Source: a virus | Reading direction: 5' to 3' (one strand) | Virus genome (UHGV): UHGV-1351772 | DNA length: 64,000 bases | In this document: piece by piece, positions 54,788 to 63,927 of the stretch | How the letters are laid out: each line of letters begins with the position of its first letter | Numbering within the stretch: the stretch's first letter is position 1 | Made by a program: the position numbers and the translations under genes | The notes under the pieces: generated by a model | What the model saw: only the letters and a program-made list of their open reading frames with translations | Databases searched by the model: none | What the model was told of the DNA's origin: nothing

Positions 54788-56284
54788 TTATTTCTTTTTC
54801 GTCAGGAACTTCGGTTCTAGTCCATCGACAGCCATACCCAGAATGGTACGTGCAGTCAGTGTACGTTTACCACCTTTGGTTTCCTGGTCTTTAAACATCC
54901 AGTATTCTACCGTGTTGTCCAGAATTTCATTCCAGTCCCACTTCTCGTCAATCATTTTGTAAATCTCACCCATGCTGAGATGATACTTCATTTCAAGACG
55001 ATGGTAGTTGTTTTGCATATAAGCAATTGCCGCCGTGATCTCTAAAGCGCGACGTAAGCGTGCGTTATCAGAAATCATATCACGGATTGTCGTGCGTTGG
55101 AATTTCACACCAGGTAGAATGTCCAGTTCTTTGATGGAGCCGCCACTACCGCTTGACGTAAAACCAAAGTCTGACTTCTTCAGCGTGTCACTTAAATAGT
55201 GCCACAGGCTCAGGTGATATAACAGACCCATTTCCTGAGAGAAGATCATCTGGAATTTCACACCAGTGTGACCACCCTTCGCACGATACTGAGTAAAGGT
55301 GATAATCTTCAAGTCGTTTACCGAAGCATTCATCGCTTTAGAACGTGACGTCGGATAAAGTTCTTCGTTAACACCGGTCTGCGCGTTATAGCTCTGGTCT
55401 TTTTTCAGCTCCCCTGATTTCGTCGCGACGATAAAAGAGTTTGTTAAAAAGCTAAGCTGACGGCGAGGAATACCTGCGAATTTTAAATCGTCGTTGGCAT
55501 CGTCAAGAATTTTCGCATTTGCTTTTTGTGCCTGACGGCCACCTGCCATCGCTTTCCCAGAGTCATCGGCCATCTGTGCCACGAAGCCCATGTAAAAACC
55601 ACCACGTGCAAACGCAGACGGCCAGCGGCTCATCATATTCGATTTTTGCAGCGCATCGTGGGCGTTCAGGATGTTCTGATCAGAATCCCCAATATCCGTT
55701 TTTGCGTGCTTGTCTTCCAGCGAACTGGAATGCCACTCTGACAGGGAGTCGATAGAATAAAGCCAGGGGTCCAGGATTTCTTTTAACTTACGACGAACCG
55801 GATCGGGGAACGGTGTTACGCGGGTTTTACCAGACATATACTGTTTGAAGCGTTTTTCAACTTCATCACGAATATAATCACTGTAATACTGTTCCCCAGG
55901 CATTACGTCAGAACCGACCAGGTTATAACGACCTTCGTGGATAAGTTCCAGTACGGATGTTCCGTCGTCGATACCGTTGGCGTTCATGGCAGAGATGTAC
56001 CCAGTTTCTAAACGATCGAGGGCAGCTGACACTTCTGTATCGTACTTAGAACCCCACTCTGCTTTATAACGTTGCAGGATTTGGAAAATACAGAAATCTA
56101 ACAAGGTGGATTTAAAAGTGTTACCGCGCCCTGCGAAACCCATGATGTGGGCAAAACCACCGTTAAGGTAGTACAAACCATCTTCACCTTTTTCGTAGTT
56201 ACCTAAGGCATGATCCATGATGGTGTAAACGTTAAAACGTGGACGAATTACTTCACCGATAACTTGCTTAGTTGGGCCTGCCAT
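54788..56284 (-). CDS. UvsX/RecA-like recombinase (498 aa)
   Basis: GFAHIMGFAGRGNTFKSTLL..YDTE parallels T4 UvsX GLLILAGPSKSFKSNFG..YDSE. A later segment LYSIDSLSEW parallels VFIDSLGNL. Confidence 0.55.
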   Translation of the reverse strand: MAGPTKQVIGEVIRPRFNVYTIMDHALGNYEKGEDGLYYLNGGFAHIMGFAGRGNTFKSTLLDFCIFQILQRYKAEWGSKYDTEVSAALDRLETGYISAMNANGIDDGTSVLELIHEGRYNLVGSDVMPGEQYYSDYIRDEVEKRFKQYMSGKTRVTPFPDPVRRKLKEILDPWLYSIDSLSEWHSSSLEDKHAKTDIGDSDQNILNAHDALQKSNMMSRWPSAFARGGFYMGFVAQMADDSGKAMAGGRQAQKANAKILDDANDDLKFAGIPRRQLSFLTNSFIVATKSGELKKDQSYNAQTGVNEELYPTSRSKAMNASVNDLKIITFTQYRAKGGHTGVKFQMIFSQEMGLLYHLSLWHYLSDTLKKSDFGFTSSGSGGSIKELDILPGVKFQRTTIRDMISDNARLRRALEITAAIAYMQNNYHRLEMKYHLSMGEIYKMIDEKWDWNEILDNTVEYWMFKDQETKGGKRTLTARTILGMAVDGLEPKFLTKKK

Positions 56285-56697: not shown

Positions 56698-57486
56698 ATG
56701 AATGTAAATCCACTTGCAGCGTTATCTAGCTTCGCCGCTAAAGCGTCTGCAATCTTACCGAAAGGGTTTAGTGGCCCTCAACAAGAGATTGCATTAACCA
56801 CTTATGACGAGATGTCGGACGTTTCCAAGTGGATGCAACAAGAAAAATTCCTACACTTTGCGGGAATGTTGGTTATCGTTCCACCTGGGTTTAATACCTA
56901 CGTGATGGATCACTTGAACCGCTTAGAATCTGTATGGAGTTCACTACAAAACATCTATACGGGTATTCTGCTACCGGTCGATAAACAACTTTCGGCCCTT
57001 ACACATGATGTGGGGGTACTGTCATTACCGATTGGTTTCCGTTACAAAAACGTTAATTTACCGTTACGTAATGTTAACCCGAAAGACCTGGTTAACTTAT
57101 TAGCGAAATCGTACACTAATAACGTTATTGACCAGCGACCAATTGAGAAGACGTACCACAGCGCGTCTGAGATTGACGTTGCGTTCAATCGTGCTAAAGC
57201 CCTGAACGTTGAAATTACGAAACGTTTACGGACGAATATCGACAAGTCAATCGAGTCCATTCGCACTACGTCAGAAATCTTGTCCGAACAAAACATTCAT
57301 CCGAATGTAGCAAAAGAACTGACGATGATGTTAGATTTTGCATCCGATTGGGTGGAGCTGTTTGGTCTGTTCATGAAACAGGTTAACGAGTTAATCGAAT
57401 GCCTGAACGTTACTGCCGAACGCTTAAAAGCGCTTAAGGCAAACAAAAATAAAAAAGTAAAGTTACCCCTAGACCGTGTGGTCTAG
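56698..57486 (+). CDS. hypothetical protein (262 aa)
   Basis: GAGG RBS. The stop codon is embedded in a terminator hairpin. Confidence 0.65.
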   Translation: MNVNPLAALSSFAAKASAILPKGFSGPQQEIALTTYDEMSDVSKWMQQEKFLHFAGMLVIVPPGFNTYVMDHLNRLESVWSSLQNIYTGILLPVDKQLSALTHDVGVLSLPIGFRYKNVNLPLRNVNPKDLVNLLAKSYTNNVIDQRPIEKTYHSASEIDVAFNRAKALNVEITKRLRTNIDKSIESIRTTSEILSEQNIHPNVAKELTMMLDFASDWVELFGLFMKQVNELIECLNVTAERLKALKANKNKKVKLPLDRVV

Positions 57487-57492
57487 GGGTAA
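57463..57492. terminator. bidirectional terminator between convergent genes
   Basis: 13-bp stem TTACCCCTAGACC/GGTCTAGGGGTAA. Confidence 0.8.
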
Positions 57493-57497
57493 ACTAT

Positions 57498-58397
57498 TTA
57501 TTTCCCACGATAAAATCCAGAAATGTAACTCGGCGCTATCCATCGCCATTCGCGCCAGCGCATTTCTGACATCTTACCACACCATACACGCTTCCAATGC
57601 GCACGACGGATATGTGCGGCGCAATAAATCGCCAAACAAACCTCGTGTCCTTCCTTGCGTTGCTGTTCTATATCTTCCCATTGTACCGGACTTACATCTA
57701 AAACGACTGCTTCACTACGTGGGCGAATCTCTGTATCGGGAACATAACGAATGGTCCTTCCGCGAAATTCTTTCTTCTCACGTTCAGTACGTTTAATTCG
57801 TGACGAAAGGTATAGTCCGATATAGACAGCGTCGAGTAGTCGTTGATTCTCCTTAACCGAAATAAGGAGCGGCTTTAGCTCGACGAAATCATCTTTACTT
57901 TTATCGATTTTGTAAATCTCAAACTCCATGTATACCGATTCTTCACGTTCTTCGCATGACATCACAAAGAGAACTTCTTCGCCTTCGTAAAGACGTCTTC
58001 CGATAAATAACGTGATTGGACTTTCGTCGAGATTTACAGTAACCGAGAAAGTAAATGAAGGGATGGTTTCTATCCAGAAGTACGGGATGTTTTTTAGTCT
58101 CTCAGTTTTTGCTAAGAGTGCCATCAGTTCTTCATCCGAGATGATTTCAACAGCAGCGTATTGCCATCCTAGTCCCAGGGACTGCTTAATCAGTCTGGGA
58201 ATCTGTTCGGTAACGCCATACTCTCGATAGGTCGGATCTTTAACTGGCATAAACGTTACGGGTATTTGACGTTTATGCTCGTTAATGAACCGAATAAAGC
58301 GGCACTGATCTAATCCGTGAATTGTTTGGTGTGCCTTTTCTATTTGTTCGCTCATGCGTCTTAGCGCTTTCCCGTAAAGTCTATTATTCGTTGTCAT
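57498..58397 (-). CDS. hypothetical protein (299 aa; start moved to the ATG after AGGAG), member of a tandem paralog pair
   Basis: C-terminus CAAHIRRAHWKRVWCG...WIAPSYISGF. The longer ORF-track start would overlap the upstream gene by 130 nt. Confidence 0.6.
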   Translation of the reverse strand: MTTNNRLYGKALRRMSEQIEKAHQTIHGLDQCRFIRFINEHKRQIPVTFMPVKDPTYREYGVTEQIPRLIKQSLGLGWQYAAVEIISDEELMALLAKTERLKNIPYFWIETIPSFTFSVTVNLDESPITLFIGRRLYEGEEVLFVMSCEEREESVYMEFEIYKIDKSKDDFVELKPLLISVKENQRLLDAVYIGLYLSSRIKRTEREKKEFRGRTIRYVPDTEIRPRSEAVVLDVSPVQWEDIEQQRKEGHEVCLAIYCAAHIRRAHWKRVWCGKMSEMRWREWRWIAPSYISGFYRGK

Positions 58398-58422
58398 TTT
58401 AATACTCCTAAACACTTTTAGC

Positions 58423-59349
58423 TTAATTGTGGGGTACGTAGCCACGGACAAATGTAGGTGGAATCCAACAAAGTTTTCTCTTTCTTTCACCATTTCTAGG
58501 GCCGACCCAATATCTGCGCCAGTGAGCGCGACGGATGTGGGCAGCCTTAGCATGTTTGATACCCTGCATGGTTTTCAAGTCAGTGTTAAACCCTTTTAGA
58601 TAATTCACTTGTCCTGGCGTGATATCTATCTTAACATCGCGTTCACGAGGTTTAACGTCGTAGCTAATACTACCGTTCTTTTTGATTTCTTTGAACTTAA
58701 TATCATTAAAAGACTCCCTGTAATTGGGCGGGATTAGCGTACACAGAAATATCATCGAAGTAGCGGCTTTGGCCAGAGATAACCATAGCATCTTTTCTTG
58801 TTCGTTCTCCACACCGTCGGCATAGTCGATTTCCACAAGCCCGTTTCCTGCGCTACGAAGCTCTAACGAACAAGTGGCAATTGTGGTAACGCCTTCTGTT
58901 AACCCGTAATCAGTATTTGTAGCAATTATAATAAACCTTCTCTTCCCGTTTTTTCGATAGCCGAGAAAGAAAGTCTCATCCTCTTTACCTACGTCGATTG
59001 CTACAGTCCAAGTAGGTATAAAGTCCAACCATTCTTCAGGGAATTTACTGGGCATCTCAGTCTCGAAAACAAGTTCTCTAAGTGCTTGGTTGGATATTAA
59101 GGAAGCACCACCGTATAGCCATCCAATTGCCAATGTTTGAGCGTGAAGGGAACGGGGATCTTTGAGACCTAACTCAGCGTCGTAAGGTATAAAGGCATTG
59201 GTTAAATGGTTACGATTCTTTTTTATCCATTTCGAGACAGGATTTTCCTTTATTCGGTTTTCTTCCATGACATTTTCAAGATGCTGAGACCCCATTTGTC
59301 TAAGGCAGTCTTTAATACCTTTTACTTTTTTACTTTTGTACAAATACAT
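58423..59349 (-). CDS. hypothetical protein (308 aa), member of a tandem paralog pair
   Basis: C-terminus KAAHIRRAHWRRYWVG...WIPPTFVRGY. AGGAGAATAAACC-ATG. Confidence 0.65.
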   Translation of the reverse strand: MYLYKSKKVKGIKDCLRQMGSQHLENVMEENRIKENPVSKWIKKNRNHLTNAFIPYDAELGLKDPRSLHAQTLAIGWLYGGASLISNQALRELVFETEMPSKFPEEWLDFIPTWTVAIDVGKEDETFFLGYRKNGKRRFIIIATNTDYGLTEGVTTIATCSLELRSAGNGLVEIDYADGVENEQEKMLWLSLAKAATSMIFLCTLIPPNYRESFNDIKFKEIKKNGSISYDVKPRERDVKIDITPGQVNYLKGFNTDLKTMQGIKHAKAAHIRRAHWRRYWVGPRNGERKRKLCWIPPTFVRGYVPHN

Positions 59350-59384
59350 GGTTTATTCTCCTAAAATGGTTAAAAATAAAGTAA

Positions 59385-59402
59385 CCCTAGCCGAAGCTAG
59401 GG
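59385..59402 (-). terminator. rho-independent terminator after CDS 59409..59894
   Basis: CCCTAGC-CGAA-GCTAGGG followed on the minus strand by TTACTTTATTTTT. Confidence 0.8.
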
Positions 59403-59408
59403 TGTCTA

Positions 59409-59894
59409 TTAATCGATTTGGACGTAGTTCGGATAATTGGCTTTTAACCACTCCCACAACTGATATGCAAGTTGACTTTGATCGGCACTGATAAGAGCTA
59501 CTATTTCAAGATAAACGCTTTCATTACTCCAAATCTGGCTATAAAAGCGTCGCCATTCAGGAGCAGTGTAGGGTACTATTACGTCAGGCATGTACCCGTT
59601 GTGCCAGCCATTAACTATCGAACGTAGGGTTTCGATACGGATGTCGTAAAACCGACGTCTGATAGAAGTCCATGTAATAGGCCCTGGCTGATCGAAGAAA
59701 TTGTCCAGATTCATTAGTAATGTCGCACGATATCTCGCAACGATAACGCCAGCTGCCTGTGAAGCTATCCAAACAGCGTCCACTGTTTTTGGAGCTAACA
59801 AGTTACGTATCGACTGTTCCATGCGATCGCAGTGGTTCAGAAACTCATGGACAATGTCGCTATTAGAGAGATTGATAATTGCATTTACGTTCAT
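59409..59894 (-). CDS. hypothetical protein (161 aa)
   Basis: Part of a tightly packed run of five small ORFs. Confidence 0.6.
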   Translation of the reverse strand: MNVNAIINLSNSDIVHEFLNHCDRMEQSIRNLLAPKTVDAVWIASQAAGVIVARYRATLLMNLDNFFDQPGPITWTSIRRRFYDIRIETLRSIVNGWHNGYMPDVIVPYTAPEWRRFYSQIWSNESVYLEIVALISADQSQLAYQLWEWLKANYPNYVQID

Positions 59895-59895
59895 T

Positions 59896-60420
59896 TTATT
59901 GTCCTAAAATTGGGGAGAGTTTGTCTGCGGTGTTTAACAACGCTTTTGTAATTTCGTGGTTGGTCTCTTTTAGGATGGCGCAACAGAGAGTGGTATAAAC
60001 CTCGATTGCTAACGCGATTTCTTGTTCAGTCAGGCACGGTTCGGTACCGTCAATCCCGTAACGTTGCGCCGCATATTCAATTTCAAGTTTCAAACGTTTT
60101 CGTAGTGCCTCATCGTTAGTTAAACGCGTACACGCCCGATCGAAACGTCTATTGTAAGCCTCGATCTTGTGGACAATTTCGCGTCGCAGTTGGTCGACAT
60201 TTACGTTATCATCAAGAGTGATGGTGACGTTGTCAACTAAACAGTAATGTACTGTGTGTCGTAAGTTGTGTAATGTGGCGACAGTAACGACCCGCTCCTG
60301 ATGGTCGCTAAAGCCATGAGCACCACAGAGCTTGCGTGCAACCGCGCCAGAGATTTTCTCCTCTAACGCTATCGGCGTGGCAATGGTTGTTTTCTTACGA
60401 AGCTGAATTAAAATATCCAC
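59896..60420 (-). CDS. hypothetical protein (174 aa)
   Basis: GTG start after CCTAAAGGAGTATAATC. Confidence 0.6.
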   Translation of the reverse strand: MDILIQLRKKTTIATPIALEEKISGAVARKLCGAHGFSDHQERVVTVATLHNLRHTVHYCLVDNVTITLDDNVNVDQLRREIVHKIEAYNRRFDRACTRLTNDEALRKRLKLEIEYAAQRYGIDGTEPCLTEQEIALAIEVYTTLCCAILKETNHEITKALLNTADKLSPILGQ

Positions 60421-60422
60421 GA

Positions 60423-60965
60423 TTATACTCCTTTAGGTTGACCGTATTTTGATGACAGGTAGATGAGCTCGGCATGGCAGATTTTCTCAACTAACCCGAG
60501 TGTTTCAAGGAAAATATCCCGGATACGGGACATTGTTTCGTTGGTAAGAATATCGCTCCAACACGTTGTGTCTATTATATCCGTCGTTGAAGATTGCCGC
60601 TGCAATATGGCGACATACACTTCGTCGAGGGTATCTGGAGCATTATTCTGTAAGTAATGCGCGGCATGTAGAAAGGCTTTCTCAAGAATCAGGTGAATAT
60701 CCGTATCGGGATCAGTTACCCGCACCAAATGTGGGTATGTCATGGCCGAATGGATTTTTCGCTCTAACTGTTCAATGAGATTATTCACCATCGCTTCTGA
60801 ATCCAGGATAGTAATTTCGACCCCACTGTGTTCTTCAGAAATCTTGTTCTCATGTACTGCTATCGCGTCGTGCAGTTCAAACGCAACGCGGCTACGCATC
60901 CCACTTAACAGTTTGTTTAATTTACCCCGTGACTCGCTGAGTGAGAAATCGATAAGTATTTTCAT
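60423..60965 (-). CDS. hypothetical protein (180 aa)
   Basis: 1-nt overlap with the upstream gene. Confidence 0.6.
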   Translation of the reverse strand: MKILIDFSLSESRGKLNKLLSGMRSRVAFELHDAIAVHENKISEEHSGVEITILDSEAMVNNLIEQLERKIHSAMTYPHLVRVTDPDTDIHLILEKAFLHAAHYLQNNAPDTLDEVYVAILQRQSSTTDIIDTTCWSDILTNETMSRIRDIFLETLGLVEKICHAELIYLSSKYGQPKGV

Positions 60966-61708
60966 TATGCATATTCCTGATAAATTGCCCGACCCCGATC
61001 TTCTCGAATCTGGCAGTAAGTTACAACAGCACCATTAGGGATTTGTGCTCCGCTGTCTTCAAGGTAAATAACGCCCGTAGCTTCACAGAGATAAAACGAC
61101 CACAATCGTGAGATACCAAGCCGTGCGTTCTCGTAGTCACTGAATGGCCAGAAACCACAGTGAAGCTCAACATAGTCTCCACGTTCTATCCCGTAAGCAA
61201 TCAATTCTTTTTCCCACAACGTACATTCGGCGTCGTAAATCGAAAACCAGAAACCAACGAGGTTCTTTGTTTGTTTAACGTTGAGCAAGTCGTTATAAAT
61301 GGGGAAGAGTGCTTTATTGAAACTTTCTAACATCTCTGGAGAGAATAGAAAATTCATGTAGTATTCTAGCCATTGATAAACGGCCTCCCAGACATCTTCA
61401 GAAGAGAAATGTTCGAATACAGCGTCATCGCAATCGTAGTTATCGAAGATCCCTGAGAGATCTATTTCGACTACGCCGCGAAGGTCAAAGTTTCGGTTGG
61501 TATTGACAGCCTCGATAACTTCGGAGATGAGACGAGTAAAGACGATTGTGCAAGCCGTCTGTGCGGTATAAAAGAATTCTCCTTGTACGGTTGACCACTT
61601 CGGGTCCTTCAAGTGTTCATTGAAGTATTGTGGCCAAATTTTATAAAAGATTCCCTCGAACAACGAGGGATTGATACGTTGTAATTGAGGGACATAAACT
61701 TTTAGCAT
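60965..61708 (-). CDS. hypothetical protein (247 aa)
   Basis: TGGAG RBS. The promoter-like motif lies 19 nt upstream. Confidence 0.6.
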   Translation of the reverse strand: MLKVYVPQLQRINPSLFEGIFYKIWPQYFNEHLKDPKWSTVQGEFFYTAQTACTIVFTRLISEVIEAVNTNRNFDLRGVVEIDLSGIFDNYDCDDAVFEHFSSEDVWEAVYQWLEYYMNFLFSPEMLESFNKALFPIYNDLLNVKQTKNLVGFWFSIYDAECTLWEKELIAYGIERGDYVELHCGFWPFSDYENARLGISRLWSFYLCEATGVIYLEDSGAQIPNGAVVTYCQIREDRGRAIYQEYA

Positions 61709-61727
61709 TTTAATAACTCCAATGGTG

Positions 61728-61753
61728 TTACACCTGGATAATATCTATCTAAG
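61728..61753 (-). promoter_or_regulatory. recurring promoter-like motif (minus-strand reading CTTAGATAGATATTATCCAGGTGTAA)
   Basis: Exact GATAATATCTATC core. It overlaps the stop codon of the upstream gene. Confidence 0.5.
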
Positions 61754-62413
61754 AATATTTTTAGCGAAAAAAGGATCGACTGTAAACTCCCTCACCTGTG
61801 AGTCATAACCCGAATGTATCTGATCGCTACTGAGCAAATACCCGTCTAAATCGTGTGGAAGAATCCAAGAATCGCCTTGTTTAAAAATACCATAATCTGT
61901 TGTTCCAGAGGAAAAAACGATTTCCTCTGGAGACGAATAGATGTGGCGTAAGGCAAGATCTGACGGCTTTAACACGATTAATCGAACGGGATGTTGACTG
62001 ACTGCCTCTTTAATAAACTGTTCACGATTAAACCAAATTATTTTTTCGGGGTAAGTTTCGAATTCAGCCCATGTCCGCGTGATAACTAATTTGGAAATCT
62101 TTCTCAATTCTTCAGAATGCTCTGCGTAGCCGATACACTCCTTGCGCACTTCATGATTTTCTACCGATGCTGTGAATTTTTGGAATAGGTGTTGTTGGAA
62201 AAAGCCGTTCTCCGGGATATCACAACCCGCGTTGTATAGTGCAATGATCTCCCACAACAACGAAAGAGAAAACACAAATGCTAACTTTTCCACAACTTCC
62301 CAATCTTCGGAGTAAGGGGCTTTAAAGCCCCAATACTGCCGTGCGTTATACATAAAGTGAGTTTGTAAAAACCGAGGGGCTTTTGACAAGACCTCACTAT
62401 AAACGATCAGCAT
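61745..62413 (-). CDS. hypothetical protein (222 aa)
   Basis: 7-nt overlap with the RNase H fusion gene. Confidence 0.6.
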   Translation of the reverse strand: MLIVYSEVLSKAPRFLQTHFMYNARQYWGFKAPYSEDWEVVEKLAFVFSLSLLWEIIALYNAGCDIPENGFFQQHLFQKFTASVENHEVRKECIGYAEHSEELRKISKLVITRTWAEFETYPEKIIWFNREQFIKEAVSQHPVRLIVLKPSDLALRHIYSSPEEIVFSSGTTDYGIFKQGDSWILPHDLDGYLLSSDQIHSGYDSQVREFTVDPFFAKNILR

Positions 62414-63927
62414 TCAAGCTCCTTATCCGTCAATATTCGTTTGTTTGAATAATAGCCGCACCACAACCCATGATATTTTTCCCCAATATAAACCAACGCG
62501 TACTCGATATACTGCCGTTCTGGACGCCGTACCGCCACGTAGAATCGTCCTTCTGGTTCTTTCATACGGTTGATTTCCGTACGCGTCGGTATGTCGATAC
62601 CACGAGTAAGGATAGTTTTAACCTTGTTTTTACTACCAGGGATATGGATGGTTACGTCAAAACCTTTATCTACGTTACGATAAAAATCTTTCTTCGGCTT
62701 ACCTTTCTCATCGTAAAGCAGGTCAGTAATGTCGTTCATCACGACTGAGTTTTTCCCTTCCATGGCATCGCGTAACCAACCTGCAAGCTCATCACGAATC
62801 GTAATGCAGCGATAAGACAATAACGCGGGACGAAGAATTCGTGTAATCGAAAGATCTTCAAACATCCATAGGTTTTTGTCTTCGCTAAAATGCATCCGAT
62901 CGACAGGAATACCGTTACCTGCGGCTTCTGCGAACTTCTTACGTTTTACGAATAAGTTAAAAACAACGGCGATGGGATCAAACTGACGTAAACGGGGCAC
63001 CCCTTCCCACGCTTTCGCAGAGTGGGTATTTACCAACTCGTATACGTTGTTCCATGGTTCTTTGGTAAACATTACGCAGAATTGCGCGTCTGGAATGTAC
63101 TTACCAACGAAGACGATATCGTCCTTCTGTTTTGCATGGTTCCCACCGAACATGTAATAAAGTTTATTACCGTTAACTGTAACAGTGGGATGCGGTTCGT
63201 TCACCATCGGGTAACAGAACTTCGTAACACAGATATCGGGAAAAGCAGACAAATTGACGCCTTCACCAACAACTTCTGGTTGCTGATCTTCCTCAGGCAT
63301 CTCGTCTTTTGACCAATACGGTGTATAGTCTAGCCCATCGCCTCGTGCCGAGATACTTGAACCCTTCCGTGCTAACTCGTCGGCACGCTCGTTTCCATAA
63401 CGTCCTGAATGCCCTTTAATTTTAAGGACACGAACACCTTTCCCTTCTTTCTTTAACCGCTGTTTAACCTCCCACATCCGTTGGATTAATTCCAAGTTCG
63501 CAATGGGCGTACCGTCTGCGCGACGCCAACCGCGTGCAGCCCAACCATCAATCCAATCGTTATACGTGTTGACAACGTAAGATGCGTCGATATAGATAAC
63601 ATAGTTTTTAGCAACGAAAGGTGCATGTTCGAAAACGGTCAGGAAAGCCACGAGTTCTGCAACGTCGGAGTGTGACATTTTTGGTACAGGCACAACACCG
63701 TCAATAAACTCCACAGCTTCTGGTAAAGATGGAAGTTTTTCATCCTTGTTTATCTGGCGGTATCCTGACGTCGTAATCCCCTCGGGAATAGAGGGATGGC
63801 GGTAAACCCGACCATCCTCAATCGTTTCACGATTAAATAAGTATCCATGAATCCCCGCTCCTGTACCGAGCGGGGAGGTCAAATGGCTACCATCCGTGTA
63901 AATTACTGCAACATCAACGTTCTTCAT
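62407..63927 (-). CDS. RNase HI domain (about aa 1-195, with an internal insert) fused to a roughly 310-aa C-terminal region of unknown function (506 aa)
   Basis: IYTDGS (D10), SDVAELVAF (E48), YIDASYV (D70), WRRADGTPIAN, IKGHSGRYGNERADELARKG (H124, D134), collinear with E. coli RnhA. Confidence 0.75.
   Translation of the reverse strand: MKNVDVAVIYTDGSHLTSPLGTGAGIHGYLFNRETIEDGRVYRHPSIPEGITTSGYRQINKDEKLPSLPEAVEFIDGVVPVPKMSHSDVAELVAFLTVFEHAPFVAKNYVIYIDASYVVNTYNDWIDGWAARGWRRADGTPIANLELIQRMWEVKQRLKKEGKGVRVLKIKGHSGRYGNERADELARKGSSISARGDGLDYTPYWSKDEMPEEDQQPEVVGEGVNLSAFPDICVTKFCYPMVNEPHPTVTVNGNKLYYMFGGNHAKQKDDIVFVGKYIPDAQFCVMFTKEPWNNVYELVNTHSAKAWEGVPRLRQFDPIAVVFNLFVKRKKFAEAAGNGIPVDRMHFSEDKNLWMFEDLSITRILRPALLSYRCITIRDELAGWLRDAMEGKNSVVMNDITDLLYDEKGKPKKDFYRNVDKGFDVTIHIPGSKNKVKTILTRGIDIPTRTEINRMKEPEGRFYVAVRRPERQYIEYALVYIGEKYHGLWCGYYSNKRILTDKELEC

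What the first reader, a model, noticed from the sequence alone, without database searches (positions are those of the whole stretch)
57498..59349. Tandem paralogs with a conserved basic C-terminal motif AAHIRRAHW(K/R)R.W.G ... W(I)(A/P)P.(Y/F).(S/R)G(F/Y)
Two adjacent roughly 300-aa genes share the overall layout. A central region resembles (F/I)PxxW..(I/T)P(T/S)(W/F)T(V/F).(I/V).V.. followed by F(F/I)(L/G). The C-terminal 40 aa are almost identical in pattern and are rich in His, Arg and Trp. I cannot assign the motif to a known family. Its composition suggests nucleic-acid binding or a nuclease-type active site. Duplication of an unknown family next to a run of five small early-type ORFs and an RNase H fusion makes this a candidate for a new host-takeover or DNA-processing function.
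Basis: seen in the sequence. Interest (0 to 1): 0.5.

Follow-up and report, generated by a model that had tools for sequence, protein, structure and literature searches.

The report
Tandem AcrVA2-like genes in jumbo phage
The two adjacent genes are real, diverged copies of the already-described AcrVA2/FinQ protein family, whose founding member silences a bacterial defence gene by destroying its mRNA. They sit in a giant phage of enteric bacteria, where their targets are unknown and are probably not the CRISPR enzyme Cas12a.

Summary
Two minus-strand genes, A (58423-59349, 308 aa) and B (57498-58397, 299 aa), are paralogs: BLASTP gives 26% identity and E=9e-21. Both carry the C-terminal HIRRAHW...W.G...W.xP motif.

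The family is not unknown. It is Pfam PF26125 "AcrVA2-like".
- A hits the AcrVA2 crystal chain 7CI1 directly (E=5.6e-5).
- A 148-member family profile hits 7CI1 over its full length (E=3.6e-46).
- H, R and H of the motif align with AcrVA2 H286/R288/H291, which are needed for Cas12a mRNA downregulation. They are invariant in all 148 sequences.

The window is an SPN3US-like jumbo phage. Named relatives carry one copy in the same slot. A subclade carries the A+B pair, including ~222-kb "plasmids" of E. coli and Enterobacter.

Best reading: two AcrVA2-type effectors that each recognise a protein and cause loss of its mRNA, with different non-Cas12a targets. The targets and the RNA-decay step are inferred, not shown.

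This is a new member of a known kind, of moderate interest.

The parts
58423..59349 (-). Gene A, 308 aa, an AcrVA2-like protein and the probable positional ortholog of the single-copy gene of SPN3US-like phages
57498..58397 (-). Gene B, 299 aa, the second and more diverged AcrVA2-like paralog
   Evidence: ORF and ribosome-binding site. BLASTP to A, E=9e-21. PHROG 6160, E=7.3e-18. Distant-member HMM, E=3.9e-15. Relatives at 63-99% identity carry the precomputed PF26125 AcrVA2-like label.
58441..58539 (-). C-terminal motif of A (residues 271-303): HIRRAHW..YW.G...W.PP..V.G. H271, R273 and H276 align with AcrVA2 H286, R288 and H291.
   Evidence: Translation. H271, R273 and H276 are invariant in 148 family sequences. 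Aligned to AcrVA2 HIRRGHW. Mutagenesis of the AcrVA2 residues is reported in bioRxiv 10.1101/2022.11.29.518452.
57516..57614 (-). C-terminal motif of B (residues 262-294), with H262, R264 and H267
59005..59043 (-). Central motif of A, FPEEWLDFIPTWT (residues 103-115). P104 and P112 are invariant in the family.
   Evidence: It aligns with AcrVA2 TPTSIFLNLPDWCVYVD.
58050..58088 (-). Central motif of B, IPYFWIETIPSFT (residues 104-116)
59384..59403 (-). Terminator-like hairpin (ACCCTAGC-TTCG-GCTAGGGT plus a T-run) between the upstream gene and gene A
   Evidence: Conserved at the same place in relatives L006, L007, L008, L009, L010 and L011.
57463..57492 (.). Bidirectional terminator-like hairpin with a 13-bp stem between the stop codon of B and the convergent 262-aa gene
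   Evidence: Conserved in relatives L006, L007, L009, L010 and L011.

Best explanation
A and B are two diverged members of the AcrVA2-like (AcrVA2/FinQ) family. They form a two-gene unit bracketed by terminator-like hairpins in an SPN3US-like jumbo phage of Enterobacteriaceae. By analogy with AcrVA2, each protein would use its variable helical N-terminal domain and variable middle beta-sheet domain to bind a specific target protein, probably as it emerges from the ribosome. Each would use the invariant C-terminal four-strand domain (H-x-R-x-x-H, W, G, W, P) to bring about loss of that target's mRNA. Two long-maintained paralogs with different variable parts imply two different targets. These are most likely host defence or competitor-element proteins and not Cas12a. 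What is shown: paralogy, family membership, fold, conservation of the residues essential in AcrVA2, purifying selection, and conservation of the pair across relatives. What is inferred: the activity itself, its dependence on translation, the identity of the targets, and how the mRNA is destroyed. That last step is unknown even for AcrVA2.
Against: No activity was measured. Identity to AcrVA2 is only about 11% over the structural alignment. B alone gives no direct PDB hit, and no model of B was made. Foldseek against the PDB did not recover 7CI1 with the same good model. A has Asn87 where AcrVA2 has D89; that column is D in 102 of 148 members, and D89A was a moderate loss-of-function mutation. 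The translation-dependent mechanism rests on one preprint about one protein. Its RNA-decay step is unknown, so extending it to 20%-identical relatives is an extrapolation.
Confidence: 0.55

Rival explanations
1. They are true anti-CRISPRs against Cas12a, like AcrVA2 itself.
For: They share the family, the fold and the essential C-terminal residues with AcrVA2.
Against: The target-binding parts are not conserved: about 11% identity overall, and the N-terminal ~80 aa lie outside the family core. The gene is conserved in phages of Erwinia, Salmonella, Escherichia and Dickeya, and in elements from Enterobacter and Shigella. To my knowledge these genera carry type I CRISPR systems rather than type V-A; this was not tested here. 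Marino et al. report that most homologs occur without Cas12a.
Confidence: 0.05
2. FinQ-like competition between mobile elements. The proteins silence genes of rival plasmids or phages (for example conjugation or superinfecting-phage genes) rather than host defences, which helps the element hold its host.
For: A family member retrieved with the window profile matches annotated finQ genes at E=2e-15. Of 754 plasmid records carrying the family, 615 are conjugative. Relatives of this phage are deposited as ~222-kb circular extrachromosomal records and occur in many isolate assemblies. That suggests long-term residence, where such competition would matter. FinQ lowers the mRNA of F transfer genes.
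Against: A itself finds no finQ in plasmids at E<=0.01. A and B cluster with jumbo-phage genes and not with plasmid genes (95% bootstrap). No target is known. This is a variant of the best explanation with a different class of target, not a different mechanism.
Confidence: 0.2
3. One reading: a stand-alone nucleic-acid-binding protein or nuclease whose His/Arg/Trp-rich C-terminus is the active site, acting generally in host takeover or DNA processing.
For: The C-terminus is basic and aromatic. The invariant H, R and H could be catalytic. In AcrVA2 these residues are needed for mRNA loss but not for target binding. The neighbours include RNase H and a UvsX-like recombinase.
Confidence: 0.15
4. 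The two proteins work as one unit, a heterodimer, or one copy is a regulatory or degenerate partner, rather than as two independent effectors.
For: The adjacent arrangement (10-25 nt apart) inside one terminator-bracketed unit is conserved in all relatives that have B.
Against: Both copies keep every invariant family residue and both evolve under constraint. A and B alleles are shuffled independently among relatives: A is 94% or 70% identical with the same B allele. That argues against tight co-adaptation. Most related phages manage with a single copy.
Confidence: 0.05

Closest known systems
AcrVA2 (Moraxella bovoculi prophage anti-CRISPR; PDB 7CI1/7CI2; Pfam PF26125 AcrVA2-like)
   Same: Same family and same three-part fold, and a similar length (308 and 299 aa; the 7CI1 chain is 323). 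The central P...P.W motif is shared. The C-terminal H-I-R-R-x-H-W...W.G...W.P motif is shared, including the three residues essential for mRNA downregulation. Both are encoded on a mobile element.
   Different: Only about 11% identical over the structural alignment. The N-terminal and middle target-binding parts are unrelated in sequence. The host range (Enterobacteriaceae) makes Cas12a an unlikely target. The genes lie in a jumbo lytic-type phage genome and not in a small prophage next to acrVA1. They are present as a tandem pair. A has N where AcrVA2 has D89.
FinQ (fertility inhibition protein of IncI-type and F-like plasmids)
   Same: Same superfamily: a member retrieved by the window profile hits annotated finQ at E=2e-15. 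FinQ is reported to lower mRNA of another element's genes. It shows that the family has non-CRISPR targets.
   Different: There is no direct detectable similarity of A to finQ at E<=0.01. FinQ is plasmid-borne and not phage-borne. The window genes belong to a separate jumbo-phage clade.
Single-copy homologs in named jumbo phages: Asesino gp235, Seoulvirus EC001 MGA_211, ChrisDB gp236, Alexandravirus AD1_242; PHROG 6160
   Same: In the first three phages the gene sits in the same genomic slot: RNase H, a run of small ORFs, this gene, a convergent ~250-aa gene, a 99-aa gene, then a UvsX-like gene. Those three form one clade with A and B (95% bootstrap). The genes in the first three phages are flanked by terminator hairpins.
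   Different: These phages have one copy where the window has two. Identity to A is 25-30% and to B 20-24%. All are annotated only as hypothetical proteins. The Alexandravirus genes fall outside the A/B clade and have different neighbours.

Membership tests
AcrVA2-like family (Pfam PF26125; AcrVA2/FinQ) | Significant sequence match to the family or to AcrVA2 itself | tested here: met
   A hits 7CI1 at E=5.6e-5. Family profiles hit 7CI1 at E=1.2e-6 and E=3.6e-46. An independent distant-member HMM finds A at 1.4e-26 and B at 3.9e-15. PF26125 is precomputed on relatives that are 63-99% identical. The local Pfam copy reported nothing, probably because it lacks this model. B alone gives no direct PDB hit.
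AcrVA2-like family (Pfam PF26125; AcrVA2/FinQ) | Three-domain fold of 7CI1: helical N-terminal domain, mixed beta/alpha middle domain, and a small four-strand C-terminal domain | tested here: met
   [not shown]
AcrVA2-like family (Pfam PF26125; AcrVA2/FinQ) | Conserved C-terminal H-x-R-x-x-H, equivalent to AcrVA2 H286, R288 and H291 | tested here: met
   A has H271/R273/H276 and B has H262/R264/H267. These are invariant in 148 of 148 sequences.
AcrVA2-like family (Pfam PF26125; AcrVA2/FinQ) | Conserved W79 and D89 equivalents in the N-terminal/middle junction | tested here: inconclusive
   The Trp is present in both (W77 and W78). The Asp is present in B (D88) but is Asn in A (N87). That column is D in 102, E in 18 and N in 9 of 148 sequences.
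AcrVA2-like family (Pfam PF26125; AcrVA2/FinQ) | Causes translation-dependent loss of a specific target mRNA | not testable with these tools
   This needs expression, RNA-seq and recoding experiments. It has been shown only for AcrVA2.
Type V-A anti-CRISPR (functional class: inhibits Cas12a) | Conservation of the Cas12a-binding parts, with Cas12a present in the host | tested here: not met
   Sequence conservation is limited to the family core. The N-terminal ~80 aa are lineage-specific, and overall identity is about 11%. Host Cas12a was not searched for. Marino et al. state that homologs are typically found without Cas12a.
Type V-A anti-CRISPR (functional class: inhibits Cas12a) | Inhibits Cas12a interference in vivo | not testable with these tools
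   This needs a plaque or plasmid-targeting assay.
FinQ (plasmid fertility inhibitor) | Close sequence similarity to finQ, and location on a conjugative plasmid | tested here: not met
   tblastn of A against 72,556 plasmids found only a jumbo-phage-like 222-kb record and no finQ at E<=0.01. finQ is reached only through intermediate family members.
Known nuclease or nucleic-acid-binding families (for example HNH, HEPN, RelE-type) | A match to a nuclease profile or fold | tested here: not met
   [not shown]

The most novel reading that the evidence does not exclude
SPN3US-like jumbo phages of enteric bacteria keep AcrVA2-type effectors as a conserved gene: one copy in most, and two long-diverged copies in this clade. 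These effectors would silence specific non-Cas12a host or rival-element genes by recognising the nascent protein and destroying its mRNA. The two paralogs would then be natural examples of the same silencing machinery re-targeted to two different proteins, in a genetically tractable host-phage system where the unknown RNA-decay step could be worked out.
Probability: 0.4. Interest if true: 0.6.

Novelty: new member of a known kind. Interest (0 to 1): 0.35.

Why it matters
AcrVA2 is so far the only bacterial example of a protein that removes a specific mRNA after recognising the protein being translated from it. How the RNA is destroyed is unknown. So is what the thousands of homologs outside Cas12a-bearing bacteria target.

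This locus places two diverged copies, with all essential residues intact, in a jumbo phage group that infects Salmonella and E. coli. Amber-mutant genetics already exist for SPN3US, a member of that group. Databases currently label these genes only as hypothetical.

That makes two questions directly testable: what non-CRISPR targets the family has, and how target specificity is encoded. The gain is an annotation and a good experimental handle, not a new kind of system.

Tried and rejected
1. Local Pfam, NCBIfam and PADLOC scans of A and B gave nothing significant. The Pfam miss is probably a library-version gap, since PF26125 is listed for near-identical proteins.
2. The first AlphaFold run, with only 13 sequences, gave pLDDT 51. 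Its Foldseek search was meaningless.
4. phmmer of B alone against the PDB gave no hit.
5. The word-indexed homolog search found only 3, 2 and 9 proteins. The exhaustive representative search was needed to see the family.
6. The two hairpins flanking the pair share a CCCTAG...CTAGGG stem that occurs only twice in the window. I considered that this marks a mobile cassette. I set the idea aside because TACC...GGTA-type terminator hairpins recur throughout the window, and single-copy relatives also have ordinary terminators at both sides.
7. Paralogy among the five upstream small ORFs and other neighbours: none found.
8. A literature search for SPN3US expression or essentiality data on the homolog gave nothing specific. 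The FinQ text search added nothing beyond Marino et al..

Full report
**Observation**

The region 57498-59349 holds two minus-strand genes.
- Gene A is 58423-59349 (308 aa). It starts at an ATG preceded by AGGAG.
- Gene B is best read as 57498-58397 (299 aa), from an ATG with AGGAG 8 nt upstream. The longer 351-aa ORF only runs back into the end of A.

BLASTP of A against B gives 26% identity over 286 residues, E=9e-21. They are true paralogs.
- Central motif: FPEEWLDFIPTWT in A and IPYFWIETIPSFT in B.
- C-terminal motif: HIRRAHWRRYWVGPRNGERKRKLCWIPPTFVRG in A and HIRRAHWKRVWCGKMSEMRWREWRWIAPSYISG in B.

An HMM scan of all six-frame ORFs finds no third copy in the window.

**What the window is**

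The window encodes several proteins that match phage "RNA polymerase beta subunit" families. It also encodes a tail sheath, a large terminase, a 2358-aa tail fibre-like protein, an RNase H fusion and a UvsX-like protein. At the DNA level it matches Erwinia jumbo phages phiEaH2, Stratton and Asesino at about 74% identity. It is an SPN3US-like jumbo myophage.

**Family assignment**

- PHROGs places both proteins in phrog_6160, of unknown function. The local Pfam, NCBIfam and PADLOC libraries gave nothing significant.
- A phmmer search of PDB sequences with A hit one protein, the anti-CRISPR AcrVA2 (7CI1). The E-value was 5.6e-5, through the C-terminal motif plus a weak central stretch.
- Close metagenomic relatives (63-99% identical) carry a precomputed Pfam label, PF26125. 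The contig look-up names it AcrVA2-like.
- A profile of A, B and eleven relatives was scored against 1.84 billion representative proteins. It found 2934 clusters at E<=1e-3 and 1018 at E<=1e-10. Most align from about profile position 85 to the C-terminus.
- A 148-sequence alignment of these hits AcrVA2 at E=3.6e-46 over essentially its full length.
- To avoid circularity I rebuilt the HMM from the 119 most distant members only. It still finds A at 1.4e-26 and B at 3.9e-15, and nothing else in the window.
- One family member (P0058) matches annotated finQ genes on enterobacterial plasmids at E=2e-15. In total, 754 plasmid records carry the family.

**Structure**

With 13 sequences AlphaFold gave a useless model, pLDDT 51. 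With the 148-sequence alignment it gave pLDDT 85 and pTM 0.80. The model has a helical N-terminal part, a mixed sheet/helix middle part and four short C-terminal strands. This is the layout described for AcrVA2 (PMC10846135).

**Functional residues**

Marino et al. (bioRxiv 10.1101/2022.11.29.518452) report the following.
- AcrVA2 lowers Cas12a mRNA and protein by recognising the Cas12a N-terminal polypeptide. The effect does not depend on the promoter or the codon sequence.
- H286A, R288A and H291A abolish the effect while keeping binding.
- W79A and D89A weaken the effect.
- About 1,800 homologs, including FinQ and megaphage genes, mostly occur without Cas12a.
- The N-terminal parts diverge between homologs.

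In the alignments, H286/R288/H291 correspond to H271/R273/H276 in A and H262/R264/H267 in B. These positions are invariant in 148 of 148 sequences, as are P104 and P112. W79 corresponds to W77/W78. D89 corresponds to D88 in B but to N87 in A.

**Evolution and context**

- Named relatives carry one copy in the same slot: RNase H, small ORFs, this gene, a convergent ~250-aa gene, a 99-aa gene, then a UvsX-like gene. These are Asesino gp235, Seoulvirus EC001 MGA_211 and ChrisDB gp236.
- Alexandraviruses (AD1_242, pEa_SNUABM_35 00242) also carry one copy, but with different neighbours.
- The A+B pair occurs in metagenomic contigs L006, L007, L009 and L010. It also occurs in two complete circular ~222-kb records deposited as plasmids of Enterobacter ludwigii and E. 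coli.
- In a neighbour-joining tree, A, B and the single-copy genes of Asesino, EC001 and ChrisDB form one clade (95% bootstrap). A groups weakly (56%) with the single-copy genes. This points to an old duplication within the lineage and not to import from plasmids.
- Alleles are shuffled. Window A is 94% identical to the L009 and L010 copies but 70% to the L006 copy. Window B is 63% identical to all three. Flanking UvsX-like and RNA polymerase genes are 94-96% identical.
- Both genes are constrained: dN/dS for A is 0.07-0.18, and for B pN is 0.25 against pS 0.83. Residues 136-205 are the most variable (41-46% identity). The motif region of A is 98% identical between alleles.
- The variable segment overlaps the stretch that aligns with the acidic loop holding AcrVA2 D195, a residue in the crystallographic peptide-binding site. 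This mapping is my reading of the alignment, and its relevance is an inference.
- Terminator-like hairpins lie just upstream of A (59384-59403) and just downstream of B (57463-57492). The pair therefore looks like a discrete two-gene unit.

**Interpretation**

The best-supported reading is that A and B are AcrVA2-type effectors. A variable recognition part binds a particular protein, probably co-translationally. The invariant C-terminal domain triggers loss of the corresponding mRNA. Two maintained, diverged copies suggest two targets.

Cas12a is an unlikely target. The recognition parts are unrelated to those of AcrVA2, and the phages infect enteric genera that, to my knowledge, lack type V-A systems (not tested here). 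Whether the targets are host defences or genes of rival elements, as for FinQ, cannot be decided from sequence.

It is not excluded for RNA, because the decay step of AcrVA2 is unsolved.

**Verdict**

The genes are new, previously unlabelled members of a known and Pfam-curated family. The tandem arrangement and the conserved jumbo-phage slot are modest new details. Interest is moderate, mainly as an experimental handle on an unusual and unresolved mechanism.

Noticed in passing
whole window; L011 (NZ_CP134650.1), L012 (NZ_CP173450.1): Close relatives of this jumbo phage are deposited as complete circular ~222-kb 'plasmids' of Enterobacter ludwigii 51A:C and E. coli 98232. The exact A and B proteins occur on 222-228-kb contigs in many Salmonella, E. 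coli and Shigella isolate assemblies, in clusters of 405 and 179 members. This suggests the phage often persists in cultured isolates, as a carrier state or an episome. That would be unusual for an SPN3US-like phage.
   Followed up: partly
window 59384-59403 and 57463-57492; L006, L007, L009, L010 and L011 at the same relative positions; L008 has only the upstream copy: The two hairpins that bracket the gene pair share a CCCTAG...CTAGGG stem. It occurs only twice in 64 kb (0.01 expected) and is conserved in relatives that carry the pair. In Asesino and ChrisDB the two flanking hairpins also resemble each other. Similar TACC...GGTA-type terminators recur across the window, so this may simply be the phage's terminator style.
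   Followed up: partly
window 59409-62413 (five ORFs between the RNase H gene and gene A): This block is much more variable between related phages than the flanking core. Identity for the 222-aa protein is 56%, for the 180-aa protein 59-61%, and for the 161-aa protein 58-86%. The 174-aa gene is absent from L009. The UvsX-like and RNA polymerase genes are 94-96% identical. The five proteins are not paralogs of each other and have no assigned function. The block behaves like an accessory hot spot.
   Followed up: partly
window 62407-63927 (-): This 506-aa protein has an RNase H domain only at about residues 81-190 (PF00075). The remaining ~300 C-terminal residues match only a phage-specific PHROG labelled ribonuclease. 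In relatives a 244-aa gene sits just upstream of it. That gene carries a precomputed PF16473 (Rv2179c-like) hit in L006, L009 and L010, and is annotated as a 3'-5' exoribonuclease in L011.
   Followed up: no
[not shown]
   Followed up: yes
plasmid collection: Several Acinetobacter plasmids and one Nocardia plasmid carry two places matching the AcrVA2-like family in one record. Multiple copies per element may therefore be common in this family, beyond the jumbo-phage pair.
   Followed up: no
window 54788-56284 (-): The 498-aa protein annotated as putative UvsX in related phages matches PHROG 97 (UvsX-like recombinase) at E=1.5e-55, but gets no Pfam hit at E<=0.01. It is a rather divergent RecA-family member.
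   Followed up: no
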